A DNA stretch of 64,000 nt from NCBI GenBank assembly GCA_013265495.1, contig MU058065.1, positions 2,891,003-2,955,002 on the forward strand, written 5' to 3'. Below, piece by piece: positions 225 to 23,160 of this stretch (position 1 is the stretch's first letter; each line of letters starts with the position of its first letter). The notes below the pieces were generated by a model. The model saw nothing but the letters and a program-made list of their open reading frames with translations, made no database searches and was not told the origin of the DNA. The translations under genes were made by a program, and so were the position numbers. Source of the stretch: Vicugna vicugna (lineage: Eukaryota).

Positions 225-1544
225 CTGTCATGTTTAGAGGTGGGAGAGGGCTGCTCAGTAAGGGCTGGAGCAGTAGCTTTGGAAGAGGGATGGAAATGAG
301 CTAGGGCTTGAAAGACAAATGGGACATGGACACCTTAAAAAGAGATAGGTGAGCTCCTAGGCACAGGAATGCCATGGTGGGAAGGCAGGAAGATAAGTGG
401 AACAATAAGGAAACAGTCAGTTGGTTGACAAAGTCTCTACTCCTGTCCCCTCTATGGGGTGTAGCATGGCAGTGTCTTCCATCTTAGGCAGTAGCTCTCA
501 GTGCTCACTAGGTACCAGAACCAGAATTCTGGGCCGCCTACAGAATACAGATAGCTGAGCCCCACCCACAGAGATTCTGAAATATCTGGCCTGACTTAAT
601 CAAACTTCAGGAGTTCATATTCCAAATATGGAGGAAAAAATAGTGCACATAACCAAGAAGTAACCACACATCACAAAAATCAGCAGTGCTGCTACTTTGC
701 AAGTACCATCAATAGCTCAGAATCTCTTAAGTAGTTAATGAGTTCTGAGCTATGGGGAAATTGAGGCAAATTGTATCTTGTGATTTACCCTTGTCTGCAT
801 GGCCCATTAGTGCTACATAAATAACTTTGGGAAGATTTATTAATGCCAAATTTATGATTTTTGATTTCTAATCATCTATGCTTCTGTAGATGCTAGGTTA
901 ATTATTATTTAATACATTCTTTCAGTAACTTTCAGGAGTTTTTACTACACCATTCAATATTAATTTTTTTTTAATTCTTAAATATAGGATCACCATTTTT
1001 CCTTTGCTAGTCTGGAAGGATGTCAACTCTTTCCACAATTTCTCAGAAATACTGGCTTGTTGCTCCATAGTTCTTGGAAAAATCCAGGAAACGGGTCACA
1101 AGACCCTGCTGATTTGAATGCCCCAGGTTTTCCAGATACTCTGAAAGGAGTTCATTCCTTCTTATAATTTATTATTCCTTCAAAACCAAATCAGTCCCCA
1201 AACAATAATTCATCTTTGATCTTTCTGTAGAGGATAAATTAAAGAAGATGTTAAGTGTGCCTACCTTTAAATCACCTTCTATAATTAGATTTCCCTTCCT
1301 CAATGTGAGAGATGTAAATTTTATATAATTACTCTCTTCTATTTAATAATTTAAATAACTTTGTGTGTCTTTAATGTCCCCTACAAAATGATCTCCTGTT
1401 TAGCTGAAGCTCTCCTAAAATAGCACAATTTCCATGACCCATGAAAGACACTGAATACATATTTCCCAATACATTTTCTTGCATAATGTTTCTTGCTAGT
1501 CTTTTTAGTTCTGCAAGATGAATGAGACAATAGGGACAATGTAG

Positions 1545-1698
1545 GGAGAGAAAGAGACTGAATATTGAGAGAGAAGGAGGCAAGGGAGCAGGGAGGGTGG
1601 GGGAAGGAGAAAGAAAGAAGGAGAGAGAGAAGAAAAAGAAAGAGAAAGAAAGAAAGAAAGAAAAGAAAGAAAGAAAGAAAGAAAGAAAGAAACAAACA

Positions 1699-1730
<32 letters not shown>

Positions 1731-1829
1731 AAAGGGAGGGAGGGAGGGAGGGAGGAAGAGAAGAAGGAAGGGAAGAAGAAAGGGAGGAAGGGAGGAAGGG
1801 AGGAAGGAAGGAAGGAAGGAAGGAAGGAA

Positions 1830-1863
<34 letters not shown>

Positions 1864-1990
1864 AAAGGGAGGGAGGGAGGAAGAGAAGAAGGAGGGGAAG
1901 AAGGAAGGGAGGAAGGGAGGAAGGAAGGAAGGAAGGAAGGAAGGAAGGAAGGAAGGAAGGAAGGAAGGAAGGATGGAGAAAGAAAGATCA
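1545..1990. repeat. Compound purine microsatellite (GAAA)n/(GGGA)n/(GGAA)n
   Basis: Directly visible; about 440 bp almost entirely purine on the + strand; explains the ORFs at 1371-2169. Confidence 0.97.
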
Positions 1991-2385
1991 AACCCCCTAT
2001 GTTGTTTGAGAAGAATGGATTTGGGGAGAAATCTTGTGTAAAATATTTCAGCAGGAAAATAAACATATACTACCAAATTATACCTACATTCTTGCTAGAG
2101 ATATCATTTGCCTTTCTGACTTTAAACAGGGTTAACAGCTATTACTTCTTTAAGTTTCTTACAAAATGAATGTGAATGTATAGGACACTATAAGACTAGA
2201 AGATGTTTAATAGGAGCCTCTAAGTAGAATAGATAGAGTCTAAGTGTGGCTTCTAATGTACCAAAAAAGAAAACCCAAAAAACCTCTTCTATGAGGAAAT
2301 ATACTGTTGTAGTTCTTGAATCAGCATTTCCGCAAAAATATAAGAACTTAAATTTGGAGACAAACATTAACAAATGGCTTCATAC

Positions 2386-3891: not shown

Positions 3892-4293
3892 TGAGTTTCC
3901 CAGAAGCAGACAATAAAACAAAGATTCATTTGCAAGGTGTAGGAAAAACTGGAAATGAGGTAGAACAATGAGAGGGGAAGGGAAAATGTGCATTATCAAG
4001 CCAGTTACCACTGGAGATGGAAGATTGATCTTGCAGGAAAGGCATTATAAAACACATGACTCTCAGTGATCCTGCCTGAAGGATGAGGGAGCTGAGGTAT
4101 TTATATACCAATTCCCTTCAGTCATTATTTGTGAGCTGCTCCTTGGGCATGAATTCCACAGCACCTCAGAGCTGCAGGCTTCCACAGCTTCAGAGATAGC
4201 CTCAGGCAAGGAGATGAAGACAGAAAGGTGATATACAGGCATGAAATAAGGAGTCTCAAGAGCTTTAGGTAGTTCATGTGCACATCAGCTACA
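3892..4293 (-). mobile_element. ERVL solo LTR (LTR16/LTR33-like) nested in a MIR
   Basis: ttcccagaagcagac..aacaaagattcatttgcaag start and ...gctaca end; MIR halves at about 3845-3890 and 4300-4490 (ccccattttaaagatgagggcattgaggctcagaga). Confidence 0.6.
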
Positions 4294-5999
4294 GATGATC
4301 TAATTGAACTTCTTGCAGTAATCTCAATAACTATGAGTTTAATGGAATCTTTATCCCCATTTTAAAGATGAGGGCATTGAGGCTCAGAGACATTGAACAA
4401 CTTATCTGTGGCCACACAGCAAATAAAAGACAATGTTTGCTTCAAAGTAAGTAATATGACTCCAGAGCCTGTAATCTTAGATATTACTCTGTACATTCTT
4501 CCAACAGTTATTGTCTGAGAAGTTAACTCCACCAACTCCTCAAGGAAAAGATATGTCTATATCATGTTTTCACCAGCCAAGAAGATCTGGTAGAGACTAA
4601 CTTCCAATGCTTTCCATCATGAAAGTACTAAGATTTTTCTTTTCTAGCACAGTTTTCTGGCACTTAGTAAGTACTGAATAAATGATGAATGAATGAATGA
4701 ATAACTCTGTAAAGTTAGCCTTAAATCCATGTGTACATAACCCATATTTCCAAAGAATCCTCCTAGTTTCCAGTGTAAAAGGAGGTCACATAAATTCCAC
4801 TATTTAGCCATATTTTGCTGACTATTCTTCCCATTTGCAGGTTCATAAATTTCTACAAAGCACCCCCAAGTACTAATAAAAAGCCTCCAGGAAATTCCTT
4901 ACATCACTCCAAGACCATTCCATTGTCAGACTGTTTCCTTCAGACCATACCTTCATCTACTGAATCTTCCACATCCACTGGCCACCATTACTTCTTCCAG
5001 CCATTTCAAACCTTCCACCAGGTGCCAACACTAAAGCATGGCAGCCCCACAGTATCAAGCTGCATGGTGTTTGTGTGGAAGCAGGCAAGAACAGAAGCAG
5101 CACTACCTTGTTTGCCAATATCTTGTGTGGAGTAGTTGGTTCAAATACTTCTTTGGGTATTTACTGTTTTCTCTTTCCCCAGGACCTAGATAGGGGTCCA
5201 CAGGGAACTGGACCAAAGGGGAACATACTAGGCTGGTCCTGTGATCACTCAGAATCTGTTTCAGGGCTGAGCTTGGGCTCCTCGACTCCCTGAACATGCG
5301 TCCCCTCCCTGAGGGCTTCCTGTCCTTCCAAGTTTGGGAATGCTCAGCAGTCACTTTGTCCTTCTCTATCCCCAATGTTATAATAATATTCCAGCTGAGT
5401 CTCCTGGTTCCTCCATTTATACTTGGTTGAATGTGTAGGGTTAATATTTTATTCATGATTTACATTTGCAACATTGTGTATAAGATTAGTAATATAACCT
5501 AATAATGTTATTTCTGGCTGACATTTTCCTCAGTCCCTCTCTAACCTTCTAATGTCATTCACTATATCTACAAATATACTCAGTATGTGTGCATTACTGA
5601 TACTCAAAGTTTTTAAGTTTAAATATCTATTTTCAAAATTTGCCTAGAACCTATATTATGAGACCTGCCAAACTCACAGATTTTGTTTTCTTGACCTAAT
5701 AATCTGATACCAAGAGAGTTCTAATGAAAGACACAAGAAGGATTATACTTTAGCCCAAAGGAATGAGTCTAATGTGAAACTTCAGGCTTGAGGCAAGTAT
5801 GTGGGAGTGACATTTTGGGCAGAAGAACTTTCCCTGACATTTCTCAAAGGTGTAGCTAAACTCCAACTCCAACTATAAGTGAAACTTAGTGAATTAAAAA
5901 TCCTTTCTTAAATGTTGACCTTTTCAAATCAAATGTTGATCTGCTTTTTAAGTGATGATCTTTAAGTGCCAGAAGTTAAAGAAAAATCACAAGAAGTTT

Positions 6000-6800
6000 C
6001 TGGCTTCAGAAAGATTATTCTCCCAAACTCAAAAGTCCAGAAGGAGTCTTGGGCTTCCACCAAGGTTTAATCCAGCAGGTGAAATGATGTAATTCAAAGA
6101 TCTGGTTTTCTCCTATCGTTTCACCATATCAGTTGGGGAGTGAGCTTCGTCCTTAGGTTGGCTCTCCTCACAGTAATGAAATGGATGAACTGATTCCAGA
6201 CTTCACATCCTTATGTCACTAATCGAGGTGTTCTGGGATGAACTATGTTCCTCCAAAATTCATATGTTGAAACCCCAACGCCCAGTACCTCAGAGTATGA
6301 TGGTACTTAAAGGTAGGCTCTTTAAAGAGGTAATGAGGTTAAAATAAAGCTGTTTATGGTGGGCTCTCATGCAACCTAACTGTTGTCCTTAAAAGAAGAG
6401 GAAATTTGGGCACACAGGAGACACCGGGGTGAGTACACACAGTAGAAAAACCATGCGAGGACACAGCAGGAAGGCGGCCATCTGCAAGCAAAGGCGAGAG
6501 GCCTCAGTAGAAATCAAACCTGATAACACCTTGATTTTGAACTGTTCACCTCCAGAGCTTGAGAGAATAAGCTCCTGCTGTTGAAGCCACCCAGTCTGTG
6601 GTATTGTATTACAGCAGCCTTAGCAAACCAATACGCAAAGGAAGAGAGAGACTCTTCTGGTAGTCCTGCAGAAGAGAGGAAATATCTTTCCCCAAGAACA
6701 ACAGCAAACATCTCCACCATATTACATTGGTTCTGATTAGTTAATTAAGGCATGGAATAGATCCATTTGCTTTGGCTACTCAAGGCCCACCTTTAGAGCA
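6000..6800 (-). mobile_element. Old MLT1 (J/K-like) LTR split by the MLT1B insertion
   Basis: aatccagcagg..aatgatgt...ttccagacttcacatcc | ...ctttccccaagaa..cagcaaacatctcc..cattgg on either side of 6229-6635. Confidence 0.55.
6229..6635 (+). mobile_element. MLT1B-like MaLR solo LTR
   Basis: tgttctgggatgaactatgttcctccaaaattcatatgttgaa...gaagccacccagtctgtggtatt..cagcagccttagcaaaccaatac. Confidence 0.88.
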
Positions 6801-7255
6801 GAGGTAAAATCACTTTCTCCCAAATCATGGCATAAGAATGACTCCCTCTGGATGGTTCCCAGTGAAATTTGTGCTGGTATAGTTCCTGGAAAGAGGAGAC
6901 ACAGATGCTCAACACTGCAGCTCTGCAAGACTGAGCATCTTTCCCAGGTCCATGGGAGTCAGCAGCAGCTTTTCGACCCAAGTTTGCTTGACTCCATCAT
7001 CTGGTGTCCTCCGTGCCTTGCACCACCATCTTCTACTTCTTTCCCAGCTTAAGAAAGCTTTTTTCATGAGAAACTGGCTTTAGAAGGAAACAGGATTATG
7101 AATGGAGAAAGGAGGACTGTTTTCACCAGCAGAACCCAATTTTTTTGGAAGCCATATAAAATGTTAGAGGGAAAAAAGTAACATTACCTTAGATCACAAT
7201 TAAGAGGATTTTTCCCCTTTTCTAAAAGCTCCACACTATGTAACAGAACATGAAT

Positions 7256-7653
7256 CATCTTTTAAATTGTCATCTCAGGAAGTAATATTCATTAGTGGTT
7301 CTGAGGTCAATACAGTGTTCTCTTTGAGTTTTCTCCATTCTCCTTTCTTTGCATTAGTGCAAAGGAGAATAAAGTGCTTTGATCAGTATGTACAGGAGAA
7401 AATACATTTCTTTTGACCCAGACAGCTCATAAAATCTTTTCAGAACAACTCTTGTGTCAAGTACAACTTCCTGTCTAATCTTGGTTCTGGTCCACTTACC
7501 AGGAAGGCTCTTTAATTTCTACATTAGCAAAGGATGTTACAGAGGACAGCATGGAGTTCTTGTTGGACTTTAAAATATTAGAAATCATAAAAAGTTTTTC
7601 ACCTCTCTCTTGAATGCTTGGCTTGTCCAAGCACTAGCTCAGAATGAGAACCC
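7256..7653. repeat. Left arm of 398-bp inverted repeat (pairs with 9591-9988)
   Basis: Manual base-by-base alignment to the reverse complement of 9591-9988: 25 mismatches, no gaps; paired coordinates sum to 17244 throughout. Confidence 0.97.
7500..7567 (-). ncRNA. Candidate 68-nt exon within the left arm
   Basis: Minus-strand acceptor ttttatgatttctaatattttaaag| and donor ctg|gtaagt; motif evidence only. Confidence 0.25.
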
Positions 7654-7833
7654 AGAATGGAGGGGCACTGAGCCTGGGCAGTTTCTCTTCTGAAGGAGGG
7701 CAAGCGTGTTGTCTTGCTTTTGTGGGAAGTGACAACCCTCCAACCCTGAGTCCCACAGTGCCACAGCTGCTTTTAGATTTCAAGGTGTACATAATTCAAT
7801 TTGTTCATCTCTAATCAATAGAGGTTTTCTTAC

Positions 7834-8019
7834 CCCTGATCACAAAGCTTTGAAACAAGGCTTTGGTTTGTTCAGTTCTATTTTCAATAACATCAATTCT
7901 TCTTTGAACACAGCCATTAACTGGCCATCAAGCAGGTCCTGGGCATTTTTCTCAGTCACTCTGCAACCTTTAACCTTCCCTCAGATCTTTATGAGACAAG
8001 CTATGAATCCTTTTTACTG
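7834..8019 (-). ncRNA. Candidate non-coding exon inside the inverted-repeat spacer
   Basis: Minus-strand acceptor ccatgactactattttttcccccatag|cag and donor aggg|gtaaga; stops in all three frames; motif evidence only. Confidence 0.25.
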
Positions 8020-8354
8020 CTATGGGGGAAAAAATAGTAGTCATGGAGGTAATATGAGGAGAGGCCTGTTGGAAATGCCCCATCTGTATGTCTGCAAAGG
8101 CTCTAACAAAGTCCTTTGCTTTTTCAGTAATGGTTATTGACATTTAGCGGGGGAAGCTTTCTATTGTTATCCAAAAATCTATCCAAAATAGATTTTTTTC
8201 CCTTACGCTATAGAACTGTTGAAATATAAAACAACATGAAACAGTGACAAGGGATCTAGAATAGAAATCCATAAATGTGATCTAGTCCTGGCTCTGTTCC
8301 AGCCAGCTGGCTTCACGTTCTTTATTATAAAACAAGGGAGTCCATTCTCCTTTC

Positions 8355-8540
8355 AGTCTATCAAACAAATGTTTATTGAGTCTCCGTTTCATATCAGGCA
8401 CCATGCAAAGCATCCTGACTGAGAAAACATGCGGAGCGCTGATCTCAGAGAGTGTACAGCCCCTTCAGAGCAGGTAAGTAGACAACACCTGAGATATAGA
8501 AGCATTAAGTGTTACCACAAAGTTTACTACAGAGCACTGG
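8355..8540 (-). mobile_element. L2 3' end fragment (adjacent MIR fragment about 8260-8340)
   Basis: tcaaacaaatgtttattgag...caggcaccatgc is the reverse-complement L2 tail. Confidence 0.65.
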
Positions 8541-8716
8541 GTGATAAGCATCACATATTATTAAAATTTATATTAACATATAAATCTAACTTCATATGTA
8601 ATATTGATATCCTTGTTTTAATTATAGATAATCCTAGTGTAGAATACCAAGTTTGTAGAGACTGCTGGTTAAGCACAACTATTACCTTAGTGCTTTCAAA
8701 AAAAGAAAAAGGTTGA

Positions 8717-8860
8717 GACTGGGATTTCAAAATGTAGAACAGATAAACAAGATTATACTGTATAACTGAAAAATTGTGCTCTACACTGGAATTTGACACA
8801 ACATTGCAAAATGACTATAACTCAGTAAAAAATGTTTAAAAATTAATTAAAATTTAAAAA
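8717..8860 (+). mobile_element. Short 5'-truncated lineage-type L1 3' end with internal deletion
   Basis: agataaacaagattatactgtata|actgaaaaattgtgctctacactgg; A-rich tail; TSD-like aaaaaggttga (8706-8716) / aaaaaggatga (8863-8873). Confidence 0.8.
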
Positions 8861-9590
8861 ATAAAAAGGATGAAGTGAAAAAAAAATCAAACTGTCTAAA
8901 GACAATTAAAATGTTTGAAAATATAATCAGAACTTATCAAAATAGAATGCTTATCAAATATAATTCAGTATATGAAACTAGAATAGTTAAATTTTTAAAA
9001 AAAAACTGAAATATACATCAGATGCCATAGTTTTAAACCATACCTAGAATGTATAAGTGGAAACTTTTCTATAGATTCATACAACTTCTAGACTGGATCC
9101 TTCTAGAACCACATCATAAAAGCTACTAGTTTTTTTCAGCTCTAACATTTTAATCGTAATACATTTTCATTGAAATCTTGTTTTGTGAAACATTTACCTA
9201 AACTATTTAGTTTTAGTGCAGAAATCCAAATTCTGATATGGAATTAAATATACCATGCTCCTAATTCTCAATTTTTTATATCAGATGAACTGTATTTACC
9301 ACTCAGAGTAAAACACACACACACATTCTTTAGATATTAAATAAACAATACTATTCTAGTTTTATTTTGTGTTTTTTTTTCCTATTAGTTTTTAAAATTT
9401 AAATACTTGCTTCTATCCACCCACCCACACCCCTACAAAAAGTCCACCAATCTAGAATAAATGTTTTAGCAGAAAAAAAAAATGAGTTCTATTTCCCATC
9501 TTTCTAGAACCTGGGTTTTTGCTATTATACAAGATTTTAATGCTTTTTTATTAGCCTAACCTCTGGCACAAGCCCCTTGCCAGTTACTTG

Positions 9591-9988
9591 GGGTTCTCAT
9601 TCTGAGCTAGTGCTTGGACAAGCCAAGCACTCAAGAAAGAGGTGAAAAACTTTTTATGATTTCTAATAGTTTAAAATCCAACAAGAGCCCCACAATTTCC
9701 TCAGTAACATCCTTTGCTAATGTAGAAATAAAAGAGCCTTCCTGTTAAGTGGACCAGAACCAAGATTAGACGAGAAGTTGTACTTGACACAGGAGTTGTA
9801 CTGAAAAGGTTTTATGAGCTGCCTGGGTCAAAAGAAATGTATTTTCTTCTGTACAGACTGATCAAAGCACTTTATTCTCCTTTGCACTAACAGAAAGAAA
9901 GGAGAATGGAGAAAACTCAAAGAGAACACTGTATTGACCTCAGAACCACTAATGAATATTACTTCCTGAGATGACAATTTAGAAGATG
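9591..9988. repeat. Right arm of 398-bp inverted repeat (pairs with 7256-7653)
   Basis: Same alignment; e.g. 7263-7350 is a perfect 88-bp reverse complement of 9894-9981. Confidence 0.97.
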
Positions 9989-10796
9989 TTGTGTGGAAAA
10001 AGAAGAAGGAGACGGAGAGGCAGAAGAAGAAGAAAGAGAAGAAGAAGAATTGCATTAAAACAGTTTGATGAATTTTTAGTCATTCAGTTTAGACATTTGG
10101 TCTCACGTGTCTTCTAGCATAAACAAACAAACAAACAAATAACCATCAAAAATCTCCCAATAAAAATTAGCCATATTTCATATTCTTTCCATATGTATCT
10201 TAAGTACTTGTTTGGAAGACATTTTTCCAAAGTGATAAGTTTTAAGATTATACATTTGAGGCACTCCAAGCTAGCTTTTTCTTTTCAGATAATAAAATCC
10301 TCTTATCTGCAGACTAATACAAATTAAAATGGAGCTGCCTAAATTTCAGCATCTACTCAATGTTTCTTGCTAAATGAAGATTCTTTGCTTAAAACAGCAG
10401 TAATGCTCCTACCTCTGAGCTCTTTGTAATCTAAGGTTACTGTGGAGAGAGTCATTCCATTTTGATCTATTGCCAGTTGCTCAAAGGTCAAGGATAGGAA
10501 AATAGAGGAGTTAATTTCAGCAAATAGACTTTTCCTGGGAGAAAAATTTGGTCCATTTAATGTAGGTGGGCAGCCACCACAGGTCACTATTTCCAGGAGA
10601 GCCCTGCTCAGGACTCAGAGACTTCAGAGATGATGCTCTGATAGTTCACTCTGATACTGAAGCAGTCTGATCCATGATTCCCAGTCACCCCAGAGGAGAG
10701 AAGTCTGTGCTCATGAGAGCTTGGTACAGGGGTGATTTTAAGTACAGAAGAAAACTACGGTTTGTTTGAGCACTCACTTTCCCAGTTGCCAGGAGA

Positions 10797-10822
10797 GTGT
10801 GTGTGTGTGTGTGTGTGTGTGT
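10797..10822. repeat. (GT)n microsatellite
   Basis: Directly visible, (GT)13. Confidence 0.95.
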
Positions 10823-10989
10823 ACCACAGTTACATTTTCATGATCGTAGTCTTATGGTGAGACTAGTGCATGCATCTTCTCTAAAGTGTGAGGATTTGGT
10901 CTGTAGCCCTTGGGGGATTTTTCTGAAAACCTGAGGTTTTTCCTTCCTGATGGTCCTCAAAATTAGTAAGTTTTATAACTTCTCTTGAA

Positions 10990-11175
10990 TATCTGTTAAT
11001 TCTTCTAACAGCTTTCCAGATATTACTGTTTTTATTCCCATTTTACAGATGAGGAGACTAAGACACAGAGTTAACTCACTTTCCTATGCCTCCACAAATG
11101 ACAGTGATAGATTTGCAAATCCAGGCAAACTCTGGATCCTGTACCCTTAAGAATAAGGGTAATGTTACACATTGA
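10990..11175 (-). mobile_element. MIR SINE
   Basis: ttcccattttacagatgaggagactaagacacagag core. Confidence 0.75.
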
Positions 11176-11649
11176 GTGAAAGAACGGTTCTCTCCACCTG
11201 CTCTGAGTATATAGCAGGATATCCACTCTGTTCCCAGAATATCTCAGGCACAAAATAAGTGATCCTTCTCTGGAAAACCTGAATGGCCCTAGATAGAAGT
11301 TCCCTATAGAAGGGAAAACTGGCCAATGAATAACCTTGCAGTTGGTTAGCTCTGCCCAAGTACACAGACCTATAAATCAGTGTTGTAGACTTCACTCTTA
11401 AATATGAACAGATAACCAGATCACTAAGTATTTGAAATACACAAATGTGAAAGAAAAATGTAAAGAAATGGAAAAAAAAGACATGGAACAATGTCAGTAT
11501 TCCAACCAGAAGAACACTTCAAAGTGTAATTAATATTCTCAGAGTGATAAGAAGACGTTGCTTCCATAAAGCAAAACTGAAGTGACATATGAAAGGAATG
11601 ATCACACCAAACAATGTGAAAAATATATACAACCCAGTAGAAGAGAAAC

Positions 11650-12440
11650 CAAAAATGATAAACCAGTGAATTATGAAAAGAGGACTACAGAAATGGTTAA
11701 TATCACTAGTTGTGAGAGAAATGAGAATTAAAACTATTCTTCAATTCAAGTTCACAATAATTAAGTTGGAGAAAATTTAGAATTCTGACAATATTAAGCG
11801 TTTGCAAGGACACAGAGTGACACAAGCTCTGACAAAGGGAGAGTAAATGTTTAAACCACCTTTTGTAAGCAATGCTTTGCCAAGTGGTAGATAAGTGTAT
11901 CTTATGACTAGCAACACTACTCTTAGGTCTGAATCCCAGAAAAACTCTTGAACGTGTATATAAGTAGCCTTGTACAAGAATGTGGTGGAATTGCTTGAAA
12001 TAACAACAACAACAAAATACCCATTAAGAGGAATGTGGATCAGTAAAATGTAGTATAGCCATACAATGGGAACTACAAGAATGAATAGATGAGTTCCATG
12101 TATCATCATGAATTGGCCTCACAAACACAATTTTGAGCAAAAAAAGCAAGTTATATGGCAATTCTTACAGTATGATGCCATTCATGTAAAATTTTAAGAC
12201 TATAAAACAATATGTAGGGGGAAAATGTAGTAAAACCATACAAATCTACATGGCAATGATAATCACCAATACAGTTACTTCTGGAAAGGAGAGGGAGGCA
12301 TTGTAATTGGGAAATTATTAACAAGGGGCTTCAACTCTGTTTGTAGTGATTATTTTTAAGAATTAGGAGCACAGGATAGCTTACTTATTGTTTTTCTCTA
12401 TGCCACTTTACGTGTCTGAAAGATTTTTTTAAATAAACAA
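11650..12440 (+). mobile_element. Old L1 (L1ME-like) 3' region
   Basis: gagaaatgagaattaaaacta..., tagtatagccatacaatgggaactac, ttacagtatgatgccattcatgtaaaa motifs of old L1 3' ends. Confidence 0.65.
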
Positions 12441-12449
12441 TTATAAACT

Positions 12450-13420
12450 AAGAAAAATCTGGAAACTAAAATAATATAATAAACAAAACTTTAAATAGAA
12501 GGATCAGAATATAAGATGAAGATGATCTTTCATAAAATAGAATAGAAAAATAAAGATATTGATGTTTTTAAAGCTTAAAACATTGAAAGTAGAGACAAAG
12601 TCCAACATCTGACTAACAGGAATTTGAGAAATGAAACAGAAATCAAAAGGAAGAATTTATCAAATAGATAATACAAAAAAAAAAAAACTTCTAGAACTGA
12701 AGGACATGCGTCTTCAGAGTAAACAGGTCTGGTGAGGGTCCAGGAAAACGAATGAAAAAAAATCTACACTAAATATATTGTGAAATTTAAGTATATCAAG
12801 GATAAAAATAAAGGTACTAAAATGCCCAGAAAGGAAAGGCAGGTAACATAGAATAAAATTCAGAATTAAAATAGAATTGAACTTCTCAATAGCAAAGCTG
12901 CTTGCTGAAAGATAATTAAACCAGGCCTTCAAATGATTTGCAATTAAAATTTTGTACTGCAGCTATCAATCAAGTGTCCGCATAGAACTGCAAGAACTCA
13001 AAAAGTTAAGTTGGGTGAGAAAAAAAAACTTAGTGAAGCAGCAATCATATTAAAAAGGCAAAATAACGTAACCAAAAATTGTAACACCACGATATTGACA
13101 AGATGTGGGAAAGTGAACTGAGTATATGGGTGGATTAACTGGAGCTAAATCCTCCGCCACCATGACAGAAATCCCAGTAGATAACGTCTAAAATTGAAAA
13201 AAATCATTAAATAGAAAAATATAAGCACTTCATTTCTAAATTTGAAGGACCATTAAAAATAATGAGTCAAAAAGGCCATAAACGTTGTCCTGAGGAGTGG
13301 AACTGGTGAGGAAAAGAATTGCTAAGTTTTTCATTATGAGTTTACTAGCATTATTTCATTATTTTATTTAGCTCTGTGCAGATATCACCCATATGCAAAT
13401 TAAGTTAAATTAAAATTGAT
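12450..13420 (+). mobile_element. HAL1/L1ME ORF1-like decayed element
   Basis: tccaacatctgactaacaggaatt, acttctcaatagcaa ORF1-like motifs; tail gtagataacgtctaaaattgaaaa..aatag..tataagca resembles HAL1. Confidence 0.5.
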
Positions 13421-15819
13421 TAAAACTGTATACCTAGAAAGTTCTGCATATAATTTTAAGGGGTTTACAACAACCTAAAGCACATTCATAGACCACATGG
13501 AGGACCAGGGGCTCCAGGTCAAGGAGAAAATAAAAAGAGGTTTCAGAGGAGGCTGAAGGAGATGGCATAGACAGGTTTGCTTTTGACAAAAAAATGAGCA
13601 TAACTTTAATGATAATGAATGAAAAGGGAGAAGGCTGGATATAGATTCAATATAGATGGCAGAAGTCAAGGGAATCCTCGTCTGAATATGACATCAGGGT
13701 AAAAGTGAAAAATGAAGAGATGGAGGTCTTGAGAGTATAAAAGGAAACCTTGCAATTAGAATTCTCCCCTCTCTTCTGAAACTGGCTTTGTGTTGGTTGC
13801 CCCTTGTGTTATGTTACAACCAGGGTTGCAACACAGAGCAGGCTGGTGAGGATTGAGGCTAAAGCCCCTTTGCGGTAATTTGTCTCCAAAGTCATTGTAG
13901 ATAAACATTCAAATAATCATCTGCAAACAAACCGTTAAAACTATAGGGTCTATACTTTCAAGGCAAGTCCTCTATTCCTCCTCTAAGCCCATCCTATTGA
14001 GAAATTTTGAGAAACCATTAATAATATAAAGCAGATATCAAATATATGTGATCAGGAATCAAATCTCATAATTTGAGCCTCGAGAATGGTGTGAGTTCTG
14101 GATCCCACACAGAGACCACACTCTCCCAGATTCTCCAGTACAATCACATCCTGCTGCTAATGAAACAAAAACTTCAACTGTGAGAAGGGTGCTAGCTAGA
14201 TCTTTGTTACTCGGCCAGTGTAGGCAGCAGGAAAGATCCCAGAGCATGCCCCACCATGTACTGACAAAGCCCTTCTTTGCAGAAGAAGAATGGGTTACCA
14301 TCAGTCAAGGAGCCCCTGAGTAAATCAATCCATCTGAGGGGGCTGTCCGGAGACACTGTGTCCCCTTGGGGAAAAAACCCTGGCCTCTCCTTTAATTGAA
14401 AACTCGTCACCCTCCCAAAGGACAGGAAGTTGAGTTCAGTCTGTTACAAATCTTCATGACACTGATTGAATAAGATAGGAAAACAGCTTCATCCTTGACC
14501 TTTGTCATGATTCTCAGTCGAAATGTTGGATGAATATAAAATCAGCTGAATGGATTAGAAAGTGAATGTGAAAATGAGGGACTGCTCATTACAGGTCATG
14601 CCATATTGAGGAAGGAAATCGCACCCCTTGCTTTTTAAAACTTTATATCCCCCTGTGCTTACACAGGGCCACTAATATTAACTACTAGGGTAGGCAACTG
14701 TCCTTCCTAGGGGGCTGAAATGCCACAAAACTCTGCAAGTTGGATTTGCTGACAGAACTGGCTGGTGAAAAGTGCTGGAGGAGGTGTACTTTTTGAAAAT
14801 CACTGCCACCACGGCTGATGGAAATGCTTAAACATAATACAAACAGCCCTAAAACACAGGTGAACATTAGGAAGCCAAAACAATCTGTCTACTGACTTCA
14901 GTTTCCAAAGGCAGCCATCCAGTTACAGGTTTTAAACTCATTTCACAACTCTTCATTTTTCTGTTCTTGTGGATGGAACTTTCTAAAAAAAATGATGAAT
15001 TTTAATCAGCAAAGGAAAAGATGAATGATTTCAATCTGAGGTCTTACAAAATCGCTTTGAACATGAAAGTGCTAAGTGGAATTTCAAAGGCAGTGAGAGA
15101 AAGAATTTAACAGGTGAATACAAATTTCTTTTTTCCAACACATTCAATCTATAAATATTTATTAAGCTTCTACCAAGTTCCAGTCACTATATTAGGCATT
15201 GTGTTAGTTTCTGGGCAATATGATAAACACTGAATCTATTCTAGAAAACAGGCCAAGAGATTCATAATGGAGAGATTTAACAAACGTTTATATTTCTGCC
15301 ATGCCTTTCTTTGCAGTACTCGTACAAACTCTAGCCCCACAAAGTAAGCAGCTTGGTGATGTCACAGTAGGAAAAACAGGATGCTTAGATATTGATGAGC
15401 TCTTCTCACGCTTGAAATTCTTTTGATCTTAATCTCAATTTCTCCTATAGTAAATTCCACACTGTGACATTTACCTCTTTGTCAAACTGGCTTTGGACGT
15501 GTTCTGCATATAACTCCCAGAGACCCTCTGCTTTCTGATTAGTGTCCACTAATCTTTCAGCACTCTCCTTTGGTTACGAGACTGAGTCTAGAAAAGAGGT
15601 GCAGGAAATGAAAGCCAACTTGGGGACCCAAGGTGGTATTTATGTCTCATTGTTGAGTTCCTTCCCCCAACCCCGCCTCAGTCACCTGATAAAATCCAGC
15701 CCTCTCACTGCTTCCCCTCTTTCTCAGGGATTTACCCCTTTAATGAGGAGCCAAGAGCTGGTCTGACAGCAATCACTGAAGTCTGGTCCTGATGGGGCTC
15801 TGGGGCACTCAGGTACTGA

Positions 15820-16279: not shown

Positions 16280-17440
16280 TTTTTTTGTAATATATGTAAC
16301 AACTATATTGAGATATGATTTACACTCAAATCGACCATTTAACGTGTACCATTCAATGGTTCATAGTATATTCAAAGACATGTACAACCATCACTGTAGT
16401 CAGTTTTAGAATATTTATATCACCTCAAAAAGAAACCCCTTATTGGTCGTTCCCCATTTCCTCCCCAGGCCCCTTTCCCTAGACAATCATTAATCTACTT
16501 TCGGTCTCTGTAGATTTACCTATTATAGACATTTCATACAAGTGGAATCAAATAATATGTGGTGGTTTTTAACTGATTTCTTTCATTTAGCATAATGTTT
16601 CAAAGTTCCTCCAAGTTGAAGCATATATCAGTACTTCATTACTTTTTATTACCCAACACTACTCCATTGTATGGATATACCACACCTGTTTATTCATTCA
16701 TCAGTTGATGAACATTGAGTTCTTTCAACTTCTCAGCTATTATAAAAAAATATTACTCTGAACATTCATGTACAAGACTTTGCATGGGGAGTTTGAGATT
16801 TGCAAATGTTAGCCACTAAATATAAAAATAGATTTTAAAAAAGAAGTTTCTTCTGTATAGCACAGGGAACTATATTCAATATCTTGTAATAACCTTTAAT
16901 GAAAAAGAATATGAAAATGAATATACGTATGTATATGCATGACTGGGACATTGTGCTGTACACCAGGAATTGACACATTCTAACTGACTGTACTTTAATT
17001 TAAAAAAAAAGATTTTGTATGGACATATGTGTTCATTTCTCTTGGATGTATACTTAGAAGTGGAATAGCTAGGTCATATAACTGTTTCAGCCTTTTTAGG
17101 GACAGTCTCTGTTTTTCAAAACAGCCACACCATTTTACATTTCTATCAAAAGAGTATGAGTGTTCGAATTTTTCTACATCCTTCCCAACATGTTACTGTA
17201 TTTTTTATTACAGACATTCTAATGAGTGAAAAGTGGTATCTCATGTGGTTTGGATTTGCACTTCTCAGATGTTGAGCATCTTTTCATGGACTTATCAGCC
17301 ATTTATATATCTGCTCTGTATAAATGTCTACTCAGATCCTTTACCCATTTTTAATTTGATTTCTTGTCTTTATATCTTTGAATCATAAAGAATCCTTTAT
17401 ATATGCTACATACAGCTCCCGAATCAGATATATAATTTTC
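16280..17440 (-). mobile_element. L1MA/MB-like 3' end (host of a younger L1)
   Basis: tattgagatatgatttacac...atttcatacaagtggaatca...gttgagcatcttttcatg; continuous across the nested insertion. Confidence 0.85.
16788..17008 (+). mobile_element. Lineage-type L1 3' end nested in older L1
   Basis: ctgtatagcacagggaactatattcaatatcttgtaataacc; poly(A); TSD aagactttgcatgg (16774-16787) / aagattttgtatgg (17009-17022). Confidence 0.9.
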
Positions 17441-19059
17441 AATTCTGCAGTCAGAAATCCTCAGTATCAAATGATGATTCTGCATTTTAATATGTGTCCC
17501 TGAGCAAGTTAAATACCTTTTATGATTTTCACAATCTGTAATAGCAAGTTTAACAATTTTATCTATCTCATTGTTCAGTTACTGAAAAAATAAAATTGAG
17601 TGATTTAAGGCATGAAAACCTTTATGGTCAGTGGAAGCTGGATACTATAATAATAATTATTACTACTTCCCCTTAACTAACGTTCTGCTTTTTCTCCTCC
17701 TATTCCAAGAATCCTGGCCATAAAACGTGTTGCCTATGTTTCCTCAGCCATAACTTAAAAATAAAAGGACTGCCTATTTCCTCTCAGTTATGTCACAGAA
17801 TCCTCAGGGGGTGCTCACGAATAGTATTCTTAGTTGTATTATGACGGCTGCCATTTCCCATCTCCCCTGTTCTGACCCTTTTGACTCATCTCATCCTCTG
17901 TTCCCCAGGCTTGTCATCAGAGGTGTCCATGCTAAGAGAGCTGTCTTCCTTGTCCCCAGAGCTGTCAGACCTGTCCTCCATGCTCACACTGCATGCCTGT
18001 CAGGTGACCTAGGTGCTCTGTCAGAAACATGAGCATGGATGGTGCAGTTAAACTCTTAAACATTGGTAACCCTCCACCCACCCCTCATCCAGCCTTACTT
18101 GCTCATCTCCTACAGATACCCCAACCACTGAATCACTGACATTAGTTGCCCCAGGGTGAGAGCAGGTGCATCCTGTAACCAGGGGTGGGGGGCAATTTTC
18201 AAAGGGATCAGTGGAAAAACTGACTTCTTAAATCTATTAGCAAATAGTATTCCAGAAATGCAGATTTTCTAAATGCCCCTTCATATCATGAGCAAAACCT
18301 AGAAACCTGACCACAGAGTTTAATAAAGGCTGTCTTGCATATAGGAATTTTTTTAATGGCATAAGAACAGCCAAAGTCCATTATTTACTCAGATGCTGTG
18401 CCACAAAACGTCTTACACTGTTTTGTAAAGGAAGCTGAATTCATGACCTAGTGACTTATACAAACAGCTTCAGGGCTAACTAAACAGCTCAGGCCAAGTT
18501 CCCAAGTAGTATTTAATCTAATTATACCCTGGTGTTTGTAACATGGGATAGATTCCTCTGTTGGGTTTTCCTGCCTCTCAAGCTGGACTTCACAATTCCT
18601 CCTCCATTGTCGTTTGACATAAATAAAAATTCTATTGTTATCAAATTGTTTTACTGCGGAGCCTCTCTCTGTCCAAAGGAAATGCAAACTTCTGTGTTTC
18701 AGTGTATTTGAAGCATATTTGTTTTTGAAGCATATTTGAATAACTGTCAGAAGTTATAAAACATTAGATACTTCATGGATAATACCTATTGGTAATCACT
18801 TCAGATATAACTGAGGGCAAAAACATGATTTTTTTTCTCTTTTCCCATCTTAGAATAATTGTTTTGTTTATAACTCACTATAAAAACTCAGTACAATGTC
18901 TAATATTTTGAGATATTGTTTGAATGTTGTTCCTGTATCCCTGCCAACACTGTTTATAACACAATTGAAATAAATAAACATGCCTTTGACCATTTCTAAA
19001 CCTAAAAACAGAACTTAGAGCCTTTTTCTTTCATATGGAATTTTTTAAGTTTTCAAGAT

Positions 19060-19650
19060 CTTTGACATAAATGTTTGAATCAAGAAACTAGAAAAAAACC
19101 AGCAAAGTAATTCAAAATAAAGTAGAATAGAAGAGATAAACACAATAGGGCAGAAATAAGTAAAATAGAAACTTTTTAAAAATAGTATGTATTTTTTAAA
19201 CTAGGTGGGGTTTTTTGAAAGATATAATATAGAAAAGTCTCTGGTAAAATTACACAAGGGAAAAAGACTCGAACAATTTTGGAATAAAAAAATGTGTCAA
19301 AATACAGACACAATAGACAATTTTAAAATAATGAGATTAGTCTGAAAGACTATAGTTCAGTGCTTTACAAAACTTAAATGAAATAAAATAGTTTTAAAAT
19401 AGACACTAATGAAATTGATTTAAGAAGAGTCAGAAAACCCAGTTTTCCAGAAATAATCAAGTAAATTGGATCAGCAGTCAGAAAACAACTCCCAAAAGGC
19501 ACTAAGTCTAGAAGGTTTAAGAGAAGATTTTCAGCAAGGAAGATAATTTTTCAACCATAATTTTTCAAACTTACACAAACTATACCAGCAAAGAGAAGAA
19601 GAGGAGGATATACAAAATGCATTTCATGTAGGTGGTATATTCCTCAATAT
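19060..19650 (+). mobile_element. Decayed L1 ORF2 fragment
   Basis: caagaaactagaaaa...gcagaaataagtaaaatagaa...ttttttgaaagat..aaagtctctgg resembles the ORF2 'WFFEKINKIDKPLA' region; frames broken. Confidence 0.65.
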
Positions 19651-20159
19651 TCCTGTTGCAGTCATGAAAAAATTATACTTCACAGAATTAACATTATCTG
19701 TACAAGGAAAGCCTACATTTTCTGCCTATTCAAACTCTATTTAGTAACATTTTATTCTCAAAAGCATTGATGCTTTTCTACTTCAATTTTTTAAAAAGCC
19801 TATTTTTCCTAAAGCTGAAAATACTGACATTAGGAAAAGCAGAATCTCAAAGAAAGGACAAGAAAAAGATCATCTGAGATTTTTCCCAAAATCATTATAT
19901 CAGTTTTCACTCCCATCAACAGTAATGAAGTTCCTATTATTTCACATTCTTACTAGTCTTGGGTGATCTGAGCAAATCACTTAACCGGAGTTATCAGGTG
20001 AGGAGTATTTCATTGTGGTTCTAACCCTGCCTTATTCATTAGCAGAAATGATGCTGGGATTTAAAATCTGTGGACTGCAGATTACTCCATGCTTTTCCCA
20101 GATACAGCAGCAACATGTTAAATAAGAGCAAAAGAGATGAGAAACTTAAAAATTAAGAG

Positions 20160-20350
20160 GATGGAAGCTAATGTTCGGGAAGCACCATGTTTCATGGGTT
20201 GCTGGTTTACTTGTATGATTGCAGGAAATCCTCATACATCCTTGTAAGTGCGATGTAGAAATCCCCATTTTAACAGAAAAGGAAACTGATACTCGAAGAG
20301 ATTAAGAACCTCCCAAGGTCAATGGTATCAGCGTTTTCTTTCCACTATCA
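20160..20350 (-). mobile_element. MIR SINE
   Basis: atccccattttaacagaaaaggaaactgatactc..aagattaagaacctcccaaggtca. Confidence 0.65.
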
Positions 20351-22517
20351 CACTGGCTCTAACACTAAAGATCATCCTTTTATAACGTTTCCGCCTACAG
20401 GAAATCCTTAATACATTTCAGCTGGTGTTTTTATTAAGTGAATTGAGATTGTTACGGTAATATCCAAATTTTTCTTTTTATCTTAGAACTGAAGTTACAA
20501 GAAATATGAAGTTCTTTACAAAAAGAAAACTAGAATTCAGTTCTTCCTGGTTAATTTCAATGCAGACAGTTATCACAGGAAGGTGAATTCAGATGTTGAC
20601 ACATCTTTGATTAGGTATTTTCCATGTTTTCTTGTATTCCTAAGTTTTGATCAAGTCTCAGATGCTCAATTTTAGAATTATGCCCTCAGGCAGCTCATTA
20701 ATCAATTATAAATGTTAGAGGTATGTACTTAATAATCAATGTTTTCTAATGTATACAAATATCAGATAAAACATATAACAGAGCAGTAAGTAGAATAAGG
20801 CTATATCTAACATGCTGCACCATTCTAGCCTTGTGCAAGAATATAAGGATTCTAATCTTACTTTGTAATTCTTTTATTGTTACTCCAAAAAAGACAAAAA
20901 TGGCAAAATATATTTATCAAAGTGAAAGAAATTAGAAACCATTGTTGAAGAAGCTGAGAATAAACATGAGAATATTGTCTGGCTTTTATAACAACTGATT
21001 TGCAAAGTTTGCTTTGCAACCCTCATTTCCTAGAATTAATTTCCATTATAAATGTAAGCAATATGAGGCCATGGTGCTCCTGTTTTAGAGACTGAAATCC
21101 ATTTCCCCAGAAATTGCAATTGTAGCTTTAATCGCATGAAGATCTTTTTCATGTATTTCACTGCTTTAATATTTGGGCCTATGTTTTAATGTTTTTGTTC
21201 TTTATGTAAGATTTTCATTTATCAGTTTCTGGGAATAAAAATCTCTAGGGAATTTGCTGCTGGAACTTCTTGTGACTGGCTGGTTTCTTTGCTCAGATTT
21301 GCTACAAGGTTGATGAAATCATCAGAATCATTGTTTTTTCTTTTATTATAAAATTTCTAAACTTTGATATTCCACACACTAGTCTAAAGTCCTCCATGTG
21401 AGTAGTTAGGTATCTAAGTGTAGATTCTCTACTGAAATAAATCAGAAATTAAATGTGCATTAAATATTAAATAATTGAAGATTTATGGCTAGCTGTTAAG
21501 TATTTATCTTAAATAATCCACAATTAAAAATGAAATTAAAATCCTGTGCAGATCCTTCATAACGATCATCAAGAAAATTTGGTGTTTGAATAGTCCCCCT
21601 TTCTGCTACAGCAAAATCTATGCAAAGGTTTACAGGCACACAGGTCTGCCCTCAAGGCCCCAGAATAGAAAACACAGGCTGACATGTAGAGGTAACAAGG
21701 AGAATGAAAATGACTTAGGCAGATTTTACTATTTCTGAGCCCAACAAAGAGTGGCAGACAGGATCTGAAGAGTGGGATCTCCTAGTATTTTTATTTCGAT
21801 GGGAAGGATGTCTCCAGCCATTCCATCACTCAAAAGAGCCCATCCATACTCTTAGGTTGATATAATAAAAATTAATAAATCTAAGGAATAAAGAGGTTGG
21901 GGTGTCACGGATCTCGTTCATTAAAACCATCTCTCTCTGTAGTCCCACCTACAAAATAAATTTGAAGACAGAGATTACGTCTACTTGTCATAAAACATAT
22001 TTTCCCCCAAGAAAGTTCTTCAATAATTTCTTTAAATACTCTCTTAGTTTACTTTTGTACAATTTGTTCAGTCAGTAAGCTCATATTACTCATCTTACTA
22101 ATCATAAGATTAGAGGAACAGGACATTGCAATATTGTCATCAATTTCAAGTTAGCTGTTCCACTAAATAAACACATTCTAATAGGAAGAACTAACCTAAC
22201 CCTGGTTGAATTGTGGACCAAAATCCCGTTTACATGGTCAGGATGCTTGTCTAGATCAGAATCTAAATCCTCAAGAATAAAATTTAACCATGTTTGGTTA
22301 AGTTTGAATATCAAAGGATCCAAATACCATTATGCAGCAATAAAAATATGCAGTGACATCTTAGAACATCAAAGCAAGCATTCTGAGATGACGTATAAAA
22401 GAATGAAAAAGGAATTTCAGGACTTGATAGTCTGCCGATTTTCTGTGCGTAGCATTCTTCATAATTTGAATTTTCAAGATTTCCTCATAAGCAAATGACT
22501 TGAAATGAATCAGAAAA

Positions 22518-22580
22518 TTACATATATATGTATAGATATAGGTGTGTATATATATGTGTATATATATATATATATATATG
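22518..22580. repeat. (TA)n/(TG) microsatellite
   Basis: Directly visible. Confidence 0.9.
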
Positions 22581-23085: not shown

Positions 23086-23132
23086 TTGTGCTCTACACCA
23101 GAAATTGACACATTGTAACTGACTATATGTCA

Positions 23133-23160
<28 letters not shown>
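23086..23160 (+). mobile_element. Very short L1 3' tail with (TAAA)n
   Basis: ttgtgctctacaccagaaattgacacattgtaactgactata plus (TAAA)n; flanked by aacacact on both sides. Confidence 0.8.

What the first reader, a model, noticed from the sequence alone, without database searches (positions are those of the whole stretch)
7256..9988. Gap-free 398-bp inverted repeat of apparently unique sequence (about 94% identity, 1.9-kb spacer): candidate long hairpin-RNA locus
Seen: 7256-7653 is the reverse complement of 9591-9988 with 25 mismatches (16 transitions, 9 transversions), no indels and an 88-bp perfect run (7263-7350). The arms match no TE I recognise and have no long ORF. Established: long intramolecular dsRNAs are substrates for ADAR editing and for Dicer (endo-siRNA from inverted repeats in mammalian oocytes). 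Inverted arms also promote back-splicing and recombination-mediated inversion of the spacer, and can be homogenised by gene conversion. Inference: a transcript crossing the locus would form a ~400-bp stem, so this may be an unannotated hairpin-RNA/endo-siRNA or hyper-edited lncRNA locus. Ten mismatches would be G-U wobbles in a minus-strand transcript and six in a plus-strand one, which is too weak a bias to fix the strand.
Basis: partly seen in the sequence, partly recalled or inferred. Interest (0 to 1): 0.8.

Follow-up and report, generated by a model that had tools for sequence, protein, structure and literature searches.

The report
Unique 398-bp inverted duplication, camelid
A 398-base stretch of single-copy camelid DNA sits twice, head to head, 1.9 kb apart in a gene-poor region; it is most likely a neutral leftover of one DNA replication or repair accident, and whether it is ever made into RNA could not be tested.

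Summary
Bases 7256-7653 are the reverse complement of 9591-9988, with 25 mismatches (16 transitions, 9 transversions), no indels and an 88-bp perfect run. The 2.03-Gb assembly holds only these two copies, although the same search finds old repeats at 72-77% identity next door. So the arms are not a dispersed repeat.

There is no coding, Rfam, CpG-island or CTCF-motif signal in or around it. The locus lies about 76 kb 3' of the KCNE4 coding exon, in TE-rich, AT-rich DNA.

Arm divergence looks neutral: K2P 0.066, ts:tv 1.8, 0-1 CpG, and no significant conversion tract.

As RNA, either strand would fold into a roughly 400-bp stem (about -650 kcal/mol). No run on record as RNA holds the stretch, and my single read-laying run was lost to a filter, so transcription, editing and small RNAs are untested. 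No third copy exists that siRNAs could target.

Best reading: a lineage-restricted small inverted duplication, made by template switching or by an inversion with a staggered break. It is anatomically like the mouse Optn/Anks3 inverted repeats. Low interest unless RNA data show otherwise.

The parts
7256..7653 (.). Left arm of the inverted duplication (398 bp, 36.9% G+C, no CpG)
   Evidence: only two copies in the 2.03-Gb assembly
9591..9988 (.). Right arm, the reverse complement of the left arm with 25 mismatches, no indels and one CpG
7654..9590 (.). Spacer or loop of 1937 bp. It is single-copy apart from one young retroposon tail and a weak low-copy old repeat near 9033-9317. No Pfam hit above cut-off.
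8716..8866 (+). Young multi-copy retroposon 3' tail inside the spacer, followed by an A-rich run. It is 88-99% identical to the 39 other scored places (1972 first-look candidates). It is therefore younger than the arm duplication, so the original loop was shorter. Its likeness to a LINE-1 3' end is recalled, not tested.
   Evidence: sequence
9992..10052 (+). Purine-rich (GAA/GAG)n tract starting a few bases outside the right arm's outer junction. It is a possible fork-stalling or break-prone site and a weak hint that this junction is the new one.
   Evidence: sequence; simple-repeat matches to query positions 4-63; the link to breakage is inference
7347..7364 (.). Three adjacent mismatches (7351-7353) that give the left arm alone a perfect 7-bp local hairpin (7347-7353 pairs with 7358-7364, 4-nt loop). 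This is the signature of one short template-switch mutation after the duplication.
7547..7557 (.). Cluster of 6 of the 25 mismatches within 11 bp, probably one multi-base event. No nearby template was found.

Best explanation
This is a small inverted segmental duplication of single-copy, non-coding DNA in the gene-poor region 3' of KCNE4 of a South American camelid. One replication or repair accident copied a 398-bp piece in reverse orientation about 1.7-1.9 kb from its source. There are two possible routes. In the first, two template switches at a stalled fork or break inserted an inverted templated copy. In the second, a roughly 2.3-kb micro-inversion had one breakpoint staggered by 398 bp and filled in. 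I put these at roughly 55:45. Weakly, the left arm looks like the parent and the break lay next to the purine tract at 9992-10052. The two arms have since drifted apart neutrally to about 6.6% divergence. They picked up one template-switch cluster and one multi-base cluster, and the loop took in a young retroposon tail. The locus has no dedicated function. If some transcript does cross it, the RNA would fold into a roughly 400-bp duplex and be an incidental ADAR, and poorly a Dicer, substrate. Shown here: the structure, the uniqueness, the neutral-looking substitution pattern, the absence of coding and RNA-family signals, and the gene context. Inferred: the mechanism of origin, the age and the lack of function.
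For: Exact gap-free 398-bp inverted pair with sharp ends. Only two copies in the assembly. The same tool recovers a neighbouring old repeat family at 72-77% identity and a young retroposon in the spacer. Sequences abutting all four junctions are single-copy apart from the purine tract outside the right arm. No target-site duplication: the flanks at 7255 and 9989 differ. Substitutions look neutral: ts:tv 16:9, K2P 0.066, and 0 and 1 CpG in the arms. The 88-bp perfect run is not significant once clustered mismatches are merged (P = 0.23 with 17 events; P = 0.038 if all 25 are treated as independent). G-U bias of 10 vs 6 is not significant (two-sided binomial about 0.45, my arithmetic). 0 of 29 ORFs in 6500-10800 and 0 of 130 further window ORFs of at least 70 aa reach a Pfam cut-off. 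No Rfam family reaches its gathering score in 6800-10400; the one weak match is 19.4 bits against a cut-off of 49. No 1-kb bin of the window has CpG o/e above 0.5 or G+C above 0.5. KCNE4 is the nearest recognised gene, about 76 kb away. In the 100 kb on the other side only TE domains hit, 2 of 150 ORFs. Precedent: inverted duplications of unique sequence, median 321 bp, flank 17 of 29 Drosophila inversions and are explained by staggered breaks (PMC1885836, passages). In human, 88% of long highly paired predicted dsRNAs are intergenic and 74% are unedited (PMC11838218, section 10).
Against: No outgroup sequence was available, so the origin, the age and even which arm is the parent are untested. 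Neutrality is argued from two sequences only. At P = 0.038, the 88-bp perfect run could be a gene-conversion tract or a constrained segment. Non-repetitive long duplex-forming loci are sparse, about 2 per Mb of all sizes in human (PMC11838218, section 9), and this one is the only pair above 83% identity in 264 kb. It is therefore not a run-of-the-mill feature. Chen et al. (PMC5398296, abstract) argue that expressed, structurally stable inverted duplicates are enriched and better conserved. Transcription was not tested at all.
Confidence: 0.72

Rival explanations
1. A genuine hairpin-RNA gene: a lineage-specific non-coding transcript crosses both arms and folds into a roughly 400-bp stem. It would be hyper-edited by ADAR and/or diced into endo-siRNAs, or sensed by MDA5/PKR, with some biological role.
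For: Either strand folds to about -650 kcal/mol with 94-95% of bases paired. The anatomy (398-bp stem, 1.9-kb loop) is close to the mouse Optn 3'-end inverted repeat (about 300-bp stem, about 1-kb loop). That repeat does yield Dicer-dependent 21-23-nt RNAs (PMC11239679, passages). 7.8% of human intergenic inverted duplicates are reported as expressed (PMC5398296, abstract).
Against: There is no third copy in the genome, hence no trans target of the kind that fly hpRNA loci have (PMC10317233, abstract start in the listing). No CpG island, no Rfam hit above cut-off and no nearby gene. The arms are CpG-depleted with a neutral ts:tv. The loop tolerated a young retroposon insertion. Efficient endogenous RNAi in mammals is described as an exceptional feature of mouse oocytes with a truncated Dicer, and natural Optn/Anks3 siRNAs are 'negligible' elsewhere (PMC11239679, passages).
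Confidence: 0.1
2. Concerted evolution: the duplication is much older than 6.6% divergence suggests, and the arms are kept similar by arm-to-arm gene conversion, as in sex-chromosome palindromes.
For: The 88-bp perfect run at the outer end has P = 0.038 if all 25 mismatches are independent.
Against: P rises to 0.23 when clustered mismatches are counted as 17 events. Identity is 93.7%, against more than 99% reported for converting palindromes (PMC8981503, abstract start in the listing). Outside the perfect run the mismatches are spread fairly evenly.
Confidence: 0.08
3. Terminal inverted repeats of a long-TIR DNA transposon or foldback element, or two copies of a dispersed repeat.
For: The arm-loop-arm layout resembles a transposon with long TIRs.
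Against: Only 2 copies genome-wide, with a search that sees 72-77% relatives. No target-site duplication at 7255/9989. No transposase or other Pfam domain above cut-off in 29 ORFs of the region.
Confidence: 0.03
4. Assembly artefact: a falsely placed or falsely inverted copy.
For: I could not lay any reads or contigs on the locus, so the arrangement is unverified by independent data.
Against: The arms differ at 25 sites, so both sequences must exist in the animal; fold-back read chimeras give identical arms and no unique 1.9-kb spacer (inference). 18 of 24 listed runs, from 7 studies and two organism labels, hold 0.74-0.84 of the sampled 31-mers of 7000-10300. This shows content, not order.
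Confidence: 0.04

Closest known systems
Mouse Optn 3'-end and Anks3 intronic inverted repeats (natural endo-siRNA hairpin loci)
   Same: A non-TE inverted repeat with a stem of a few hundred bp and a kb-scale loop. Optn has an approximately 300-bp stem and approximately 1-kb loop (PMC11239679, passages). Here the stem is 398 bp and the loop 1.9 kb.
   Different: Those repeats lie inside expressed genes and give Dicer-dependent 21-23-nt RNAs. This one lies about 76 kb from the nearest recognised gene, and neither transcription nor small RNAs were tested.
Inversion-associated inverted duplications (staggered-break model, Drosophila melanogaster group)
   Same: Inverted duplicates of ancestrally unique, non-repetitive sequence of a few hundred bp (median 321 bp), sometimes at one breakpoint only (PMC1885836, passages).
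   Different: Those flank large chromosomal inversions shown by outgroup comparison. Here the enclosed segment is only 1.9 kb, and its orientation relative to an outgroup is unknown.
Long, highly paired predicted dsRNAs of the human genome (dsRNAscan) and inverted Alu/LINE pairs edited by ADAR
   Same: More than 300 bp of near-perfect intramolecular pairing. Such structures are rare (2,018 of 5,134,754 predictions), 88% intergenic and 74% unedited (PMC11838218, section 10).
   Different: Most of those form between inverted LINE or Alu copies. These arms are single-copy, and at 93.7% Watson-Crick (95.2-96.2% with G-U) they sit at the edge of that paper's >96% class.
Drosophila hpRNA loci
   Same: A long inverted repeat that would give a hairpin RNA.
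   Different: hpRNA siRNAs suppress related genes elsewhere (PMC10317233, abstract start). Here no related sequence exists elsewhere in the genome.
Sex-chromosome palindromes maintained by gene conversion
   Same: Two inverted arms around a unique spacer.
   Different: Those arms are kilobases to megabases long, more than 99% identical and carry genes (PMC8981503 and PMC8327919, abstract starts in the listing). These arms are 398 bp, 93.7% identical and non-coding.

Membership tests
Hairpin-RNA / endo-siRNA locus | Inverted repeat able to form a long (>=~300 bp) intramolecular duplex | tested here: met
   MFE -647.6 / -652.8 kcal/mol against -176 to -204 for 10 shuffled controls; 373 of 398 positions Watson-Crick
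Hairpin-RNA / endo-siRNA locus | One transcript covers both arms | not testable with these tools
Hairpin-RNA / endo-siRNA locus | Dicer-dependent 21-23-nt small RNAs from both arms | not testable with these tools
   No small-RNA data could be laid
Hairpin-RNA / endo-siRNA locus | A homologous target gene or element elsewhere (as for fly hpRNAs and pseudogene-derived mouse siRNAs) | tested here: not met
   Only the two arms match in 2.03 Gb, 2 of 2 candidates. The tool detects 72-77% relatives.
ADAR hyper-edited dsRNA (editing-enriched region) | Clustered A-to-G differences between RNA and genome on both arms | not testable with these tools
   No RNA reads laid
Pair of dispersed repeats (TE copies in opposite orientation) | Arms belong to a multi-copy family | tested here: not met
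   2 copies only. By contrast, 3045 first-look candidates for 6256-6644 and 1972 for the spacer's retroposon tail.
DNA transposon with long terminal inverted repeats | Target-site duplication, transposase remnant, further copies | tested here: not met
   Flanks differ at 7255/9989. 0 of 29 ORFs above a Pfam cut-off. No further copy.
Inversion with staggered-break inverted duplication | Inverted duplicate of unique sequence bounding a segment | tested here: met
Inversion with staggered-break inverted duplication | Enclosed segment inverted relative to the ancestral (outgroup) order | not testable with these tools
   No other mammalian genome is held. An exact 28-mer scan of metagenome contigs found 0. 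A search with the ORF across the left junction found no candidate.
Palindrome homogenised by gene conversion | Arm-to-arm identity far above neutral expectation; conversion tracts | tested here: inconclusive
   93.7% identity. The 88-bp perfect run has P = 0.038 or 0.23, depending on how clustered mismatches are counted.

The most novel reading that the evidence does not exclude
A camelid-specific, non-repetitive hairpin RNA gene in the KCNE4-distal desert. A lineage-restricted transcript would fold into a roughly 400-bp near-perfect duplex and act as an endogenous long dsRNA: hyper-edited by ADAR1, a potential MDA5/PKR ligand, or a source of self-directed small RNAs. This would be a rare non-TE member of the mammalian dsRNAome outside rodents and primates.
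Probability: 0.08. Interest if true: 0.5.

Novelty: new member of a known kind. Interest (0 to 1): 0.2.

Why it matters
As it stands, it matters little. It is a clean, datable example of a small inverted duplication of unique DNA. With outgroup genomes it could show which of two mutational routes made it: template switching, or a micro-inversion with a staggered break. It would gain interest only if it is transcribed. Long, nearly perfect duplexes from non-repetitive sequence are rare in mammals (PMC11838218, sections 9 and 10). They are the kind of self-RNA that ADAR1 must edit to keep MDA5 quiet, so a new expressed one in a livestock species would be a useful natural substrate.

Tried and rejected
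(1) RNA evidence. The look-up of sequencing runs listed no RNA holder.

(2) Read laying. No depth, editing, junction or inversion data were obtained.

(3) Orthologues. An exact 28-mer from the perfect run gave 0 matches in metagenome contigs. A protein search with the 70-aa frame that crosses the left outer junction found no candidate. Earlier-findings look-ups near the locus, by sequence, by relatives and by words were empty.

(4) Coding or transposase content. Pfam on 29 ORFs of 6500-10800 gave only two sub-threshold hits (E 0.017 and 0.062, below cut-offs). 130 of the window's 150 ORFs of at least 70 aa gave one sub-threshold hit. Of the 20 not sent, 12 are low-complexity frames at 1374-2166 and 31927-32338, and 8 were already.

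(5) RNA families. One weak Rfam match outside the arms (RAGATH-25, 19.4 bits against a cut-off of 49).

(6) CTCF-type motif.

(7) Junction microhomology, read by eye. No convincing terminal microhomology at any of the four junctions. A loose nearby repeat of an 8-9-base word at the left inner junction was judged to be chance.

(8) A TE split by a junction, which would have polarised the event. None was found, because the junction-adjacent flanks are single-copy apart from the purine tract outside the right arm.

(9) Flank ORF scan. 300 of 375 ORFs (at least 75 aa, entropy filter) were scanned. The last 75, from L020-L022, were not.
Full report
OBSERVATION

The repeat is exactly as described. 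The repeat finder reports arms 7256-7653 and 9591-9988, 398 nt, 94% complementary, with 1937 nt between them. My own count gives 25 mismatches (16 transitions, 9 transversions), no gaps, and a longest perfect run of 88 bp at 7263-7350. The 100 bases outside and the 100 bases inside the arms show no continued complementarity.

A gapped blastn of 4000-13500 against itself finds the pair at E = 3.6e-143 and nothing else of note, so the ends are sharp. In 264 kb of contiguous sequence (the window plus 100 kb on each side), 8 inverted pairs have arms of at least 150 bp and a spacer of at most 10 kb. This is the only one above 83% identity; the other 7 are 75-83%. Those that lie inside the window share arms with one another, as repeat copies do.

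IS IT A KNOWN REPEAT?

No. The window's own assembly is 2.03 Gb in 12,405 contigs, and the window is C1347:2891003-2955002. It holds only the two arms themselves; 2 first-look candidates were found and both were scored.

The search is sensitive enough for this to mean something. With the left flank as query it found a family with 3045 candidates at 72-77% identity covering 6256-6644. With the spacer as query it found a young family with 1972 candidates at 88-99% identity covering about 8716-8866.

Queried separately, so that these strong families could not crowd out weaker matches, the sequences abutting the left arm and both ends of the spacer are single-copy:
- 6650-7255 gave 1 match, itself.
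- 7654-8700 gave itself plus one 58-bp match.
- 8900-9590 gave itself plus four weak matches at 68-80%, none near a junction.
- 9989-10988 matched elsewhere only through the purine-rich simple repeat at about 9992-10052.

There is no target-site duplication at 7255/9989. None of 29 ORFs in 6500-10800 reaches a Pfam cut-off. A transposon with long terminal repeats, or a pair of TE copies, is therefore rejected. Very old repeats below about 70% identity cannot be excluded without Dfam.

SURROUNDINGS

The window is AT-rich (39% G+C). No 1-kb bin has CpG o/e above 0.5 or G+C above 0.5.

130 of its 150 stop-to-stop ORFs of at least 70 aa were scanned and none reaches a Pfam cut-off. Of the other 20, 8 had been scanned and 12 are low-complexity frames. 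Rfam at gathering score finds only a tRNA-like hit at 35086-35156. At E <= 1 in 6800-10400 it finds only a chance-level match.

I fetched 100 kb on each side and scanned 300 of 375 ORFs. On the low side only TE domains hit: a DDE_1 and an L1 ORF1 domain, 2 of 150 ORFs. On the high side one ORF, L015:2291-2971 on the minus strand, carries the KCNE domain. It is 99% identical to Camelus KCNE4.

That exon lies about 76 kb from the right arm. KCNE4 is on the minus strand, so the repeat lies 3' of it. The repeat therefore sits in what looks like intergenic, TE-rich DNA. My recollection that the human orthologous region is the KCNE4-SCG2 gene desert is untested.

HOW THE ARMS DIFFER

The K2P distance is 0.066 and ts:tv is 1.8. 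The arms hold 0 and 1 CpG, and the single CpG site is one of the mismatches.

Mismatches are partly clustered. Merging those within 5 bp leaves 17 events. Two clusters stand out:
- 7351-7353 gives the left arm alone a perfect 7-bp local hairpin (7347-7353 with 7358-7364). This is the mark of a short template-switch mutation.
- 7547-7557 holds 6 mismatches in 11 bp, with no template found nearby.

The 88-bp perfect run has P = 0.038 if all 25 mismatches are independent and P = 0.23 with 17 events, so a conversion tract is not established. G-U pairs number 6 on the plus strand and 10 on the minus strand. The two-sided binomial is about 0.45, so there is no strand signal. Nothing here departs from neutral decay, though two sequences alone cannot prove neutrality.

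AGE

With K = 0.066, the time since duplication is K/(2 x rate). Three rates give three ages:
- About 6.6 My at 5e-9 per site per year. This is the 2.5e-8 per generation and 5-year generation used for camel LTR dating in PMC8605555 (passages).
- About 15 My at 2.2e-9, a mammalian average I recall and did not look up.
- About 33 My at 1e-9.

The Old World/New World camelid split is put at 11-25 Mya (PMC4884201, passages). The event probably falls within Camelidae, but I cannot say on which side of that split.

18 of 24 listed public runs hold 0.74-0.84 of the sampled 31-mers of 7000-10300. They come from 7 studies and carry two organism labels (15 A, 3 B). The sequence content is therefore shared by at least two closely related labelled organisms. 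The order of the parts was not checked, because nothing could be laid.

The spacer's retroposon tail is up to 99% identical to other copies. It is therefore younger than the duplication, and the original loop was some 150-250 bp shorter.

MECHANISM OF ORIGIN (INFERENCE)

Two routes give exactly this layout.

(a) Templated inverted insertion. A stalled fork or broken end switched to the opposite strand about 1.9 kb back, copied 398 bp, and switched back. This leaves the spacer in its ancestral orientation.

(b) Micro-inversion of arm plus spacer with one breakpoint staggered by 398 bp and filled in. This is the model proposed for the inverted duplications of unique sequence at 17 of 29 Drosophila inversions, with median length 321 bp and sometimes at one breakpoint only (PMC1885836, passages). 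It leaves the spacer inverted.

The purine-rich tract just outside the right arm is the only hint of where the break lay. I take it as weak support that the right outer junction is new and the left arm is the parent. No terminal microhomology was convincing. Only an outgroup can decide.

COULD IT WORK AS RNA?

Joined by a 4-nt linker, the arms fold to -647.6 kcal/mol on the plus strand and -652.8 on the minus strand, with 94-95% of bases paired. Ten shuffled-arm controls gave -176 to -204.

The anatomy is close to the mouse Optn 3'-end inverted repeat (about 300-bp stem, about 1-kb loop) and the intronic Anks3 repeat. Both give Dicer-dependent 21-23-nt RNAs. In normal tissues the amounts are 'negligible', and efficient RNAi is described as an exceptional feature of mouse oocytes with a truncated Dicer (PMC11239679, passages). 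That this isoform is confined to some rodents is my recollection.

In human, 2,018 of 5,134,754 predicted dsRNAs are longer than 300 bp and more than 96% paired. Most of them form between inverted LINEs; 88% are intergenic and 74% are unedited. Non-repetitive dsRNAs of all sizes average about 2 per Mb (PMC11838218, abstract and sections 9 and 10). The present stem is 93.7% Watson-Crick, or 95.2-96.2% with G-U, so it sits at the edge of that class. It is unusual in being non-repetitive, but it is of a known kind.

Several points weigh against a dedicated RNA gene:
- No promoter-type CpG island.
- No gene within about 76 kb.
- Neutral-looking arms.
- A loop that accepted a retroposon.
- No third copy for siRNAs to act on, unlike fly hpRNA loci, which suppress related genes elsewhere (PMC10317233, abstract start only).

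One point weighs for it. Chen et al. report that 7.8% of human intergenic inverted duplicates are expressed and that expressed ones are more stable and better conserved (PMC5398296, abstract and section 12). Their definition allows spacers only up to 1 kb.

Back-splicing needs exons in the loop, and none is evident. As for recombination between the arms, the longest perfect match is 88 bp. From memory, that is below the length usually needed for efficient homologous recombination in mammals.

WHAT COULD NOT BE DONE

Transcription, editing, small RNAs, junction support and inversion polymorphism are all untested. The run search listed no RNA holder. No other mammalian genome is held. An exact-word scan of metagenome contigs, a protein search with a junction-spanning frame and four look-ups of earlier findings found nothing.

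VERDICT

This is a real, sharply bounded, single-copy 398-bp inverted duplication. It is most probably a neutral, lineage-restricted by-product of replication or repair (confidence about 0.7). It has the latent ability to form a long RNA duplex, which remains unproven. It is a new member of a known kind, and of low interest unless RNA data show expression.

Noticed in passing
L015:2291-2971 (-), = G000:C1347:2977293-2977973, about 22 kb beyond the window's high end: Single-exon KCNE4 open reading frame: Pfam ISK_Channel at E 4.5e-8, and 99% identical to Camelus KCNE4 proteins. It fixes the syntenic position of the window.
   Followed up: yes
window 35086-35156 (+): The only Rfam gathering-score hit in the window: tRNA, 41.1 bits. 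It could be a tRNA gene or the head of a tRNA-derived SINE.
   Followed up: no
window 1371-2169: About 0.8 kb of purine/pyrimidine-rich low-complexity repeat. All six frames stay open and read as runs such as SFLP or KERKK.
   Followed up: no
window 6256-6644: Old interspersed repeat 0.6 kb left of the inverted duplication. It has 3045 first-look candidates in the genome, and the 40 scored are 72-77% identical. The family was not named.
   Followed up: partly
window 8716-8866: The young retroposon tail in the spacer matches other copies in two pieces. In those copies the pieces lie about 70-80 bp apart, but here they abut, so this copy seems to carry an internal deletion.
   Followed up: no
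window 7347-7364: A three-base cluster (7351-7353) makes a perfect 7-bp stem with a 4-nt loop in the left arm only. This is a textbook-looking short template-switch mutation.
   Followed up: partly
window 16840-33484: Several inverted pairs of 73-80% identity share arms around 24.6-25.2 kb, 27.0-27.5 kb and 33.2-33.5 kb. These are evidently copies of one old repeat family in both orientations.
   Followed up: no
L006:7524-7799 (-) and L011:156-416 (+): TE protein remnants in the 100 kb below the window: a DDE_1 (pogo/Tigger-type) transposase piece and an L1 ORF1 RNA-binding domain piece.
   Followed up: no
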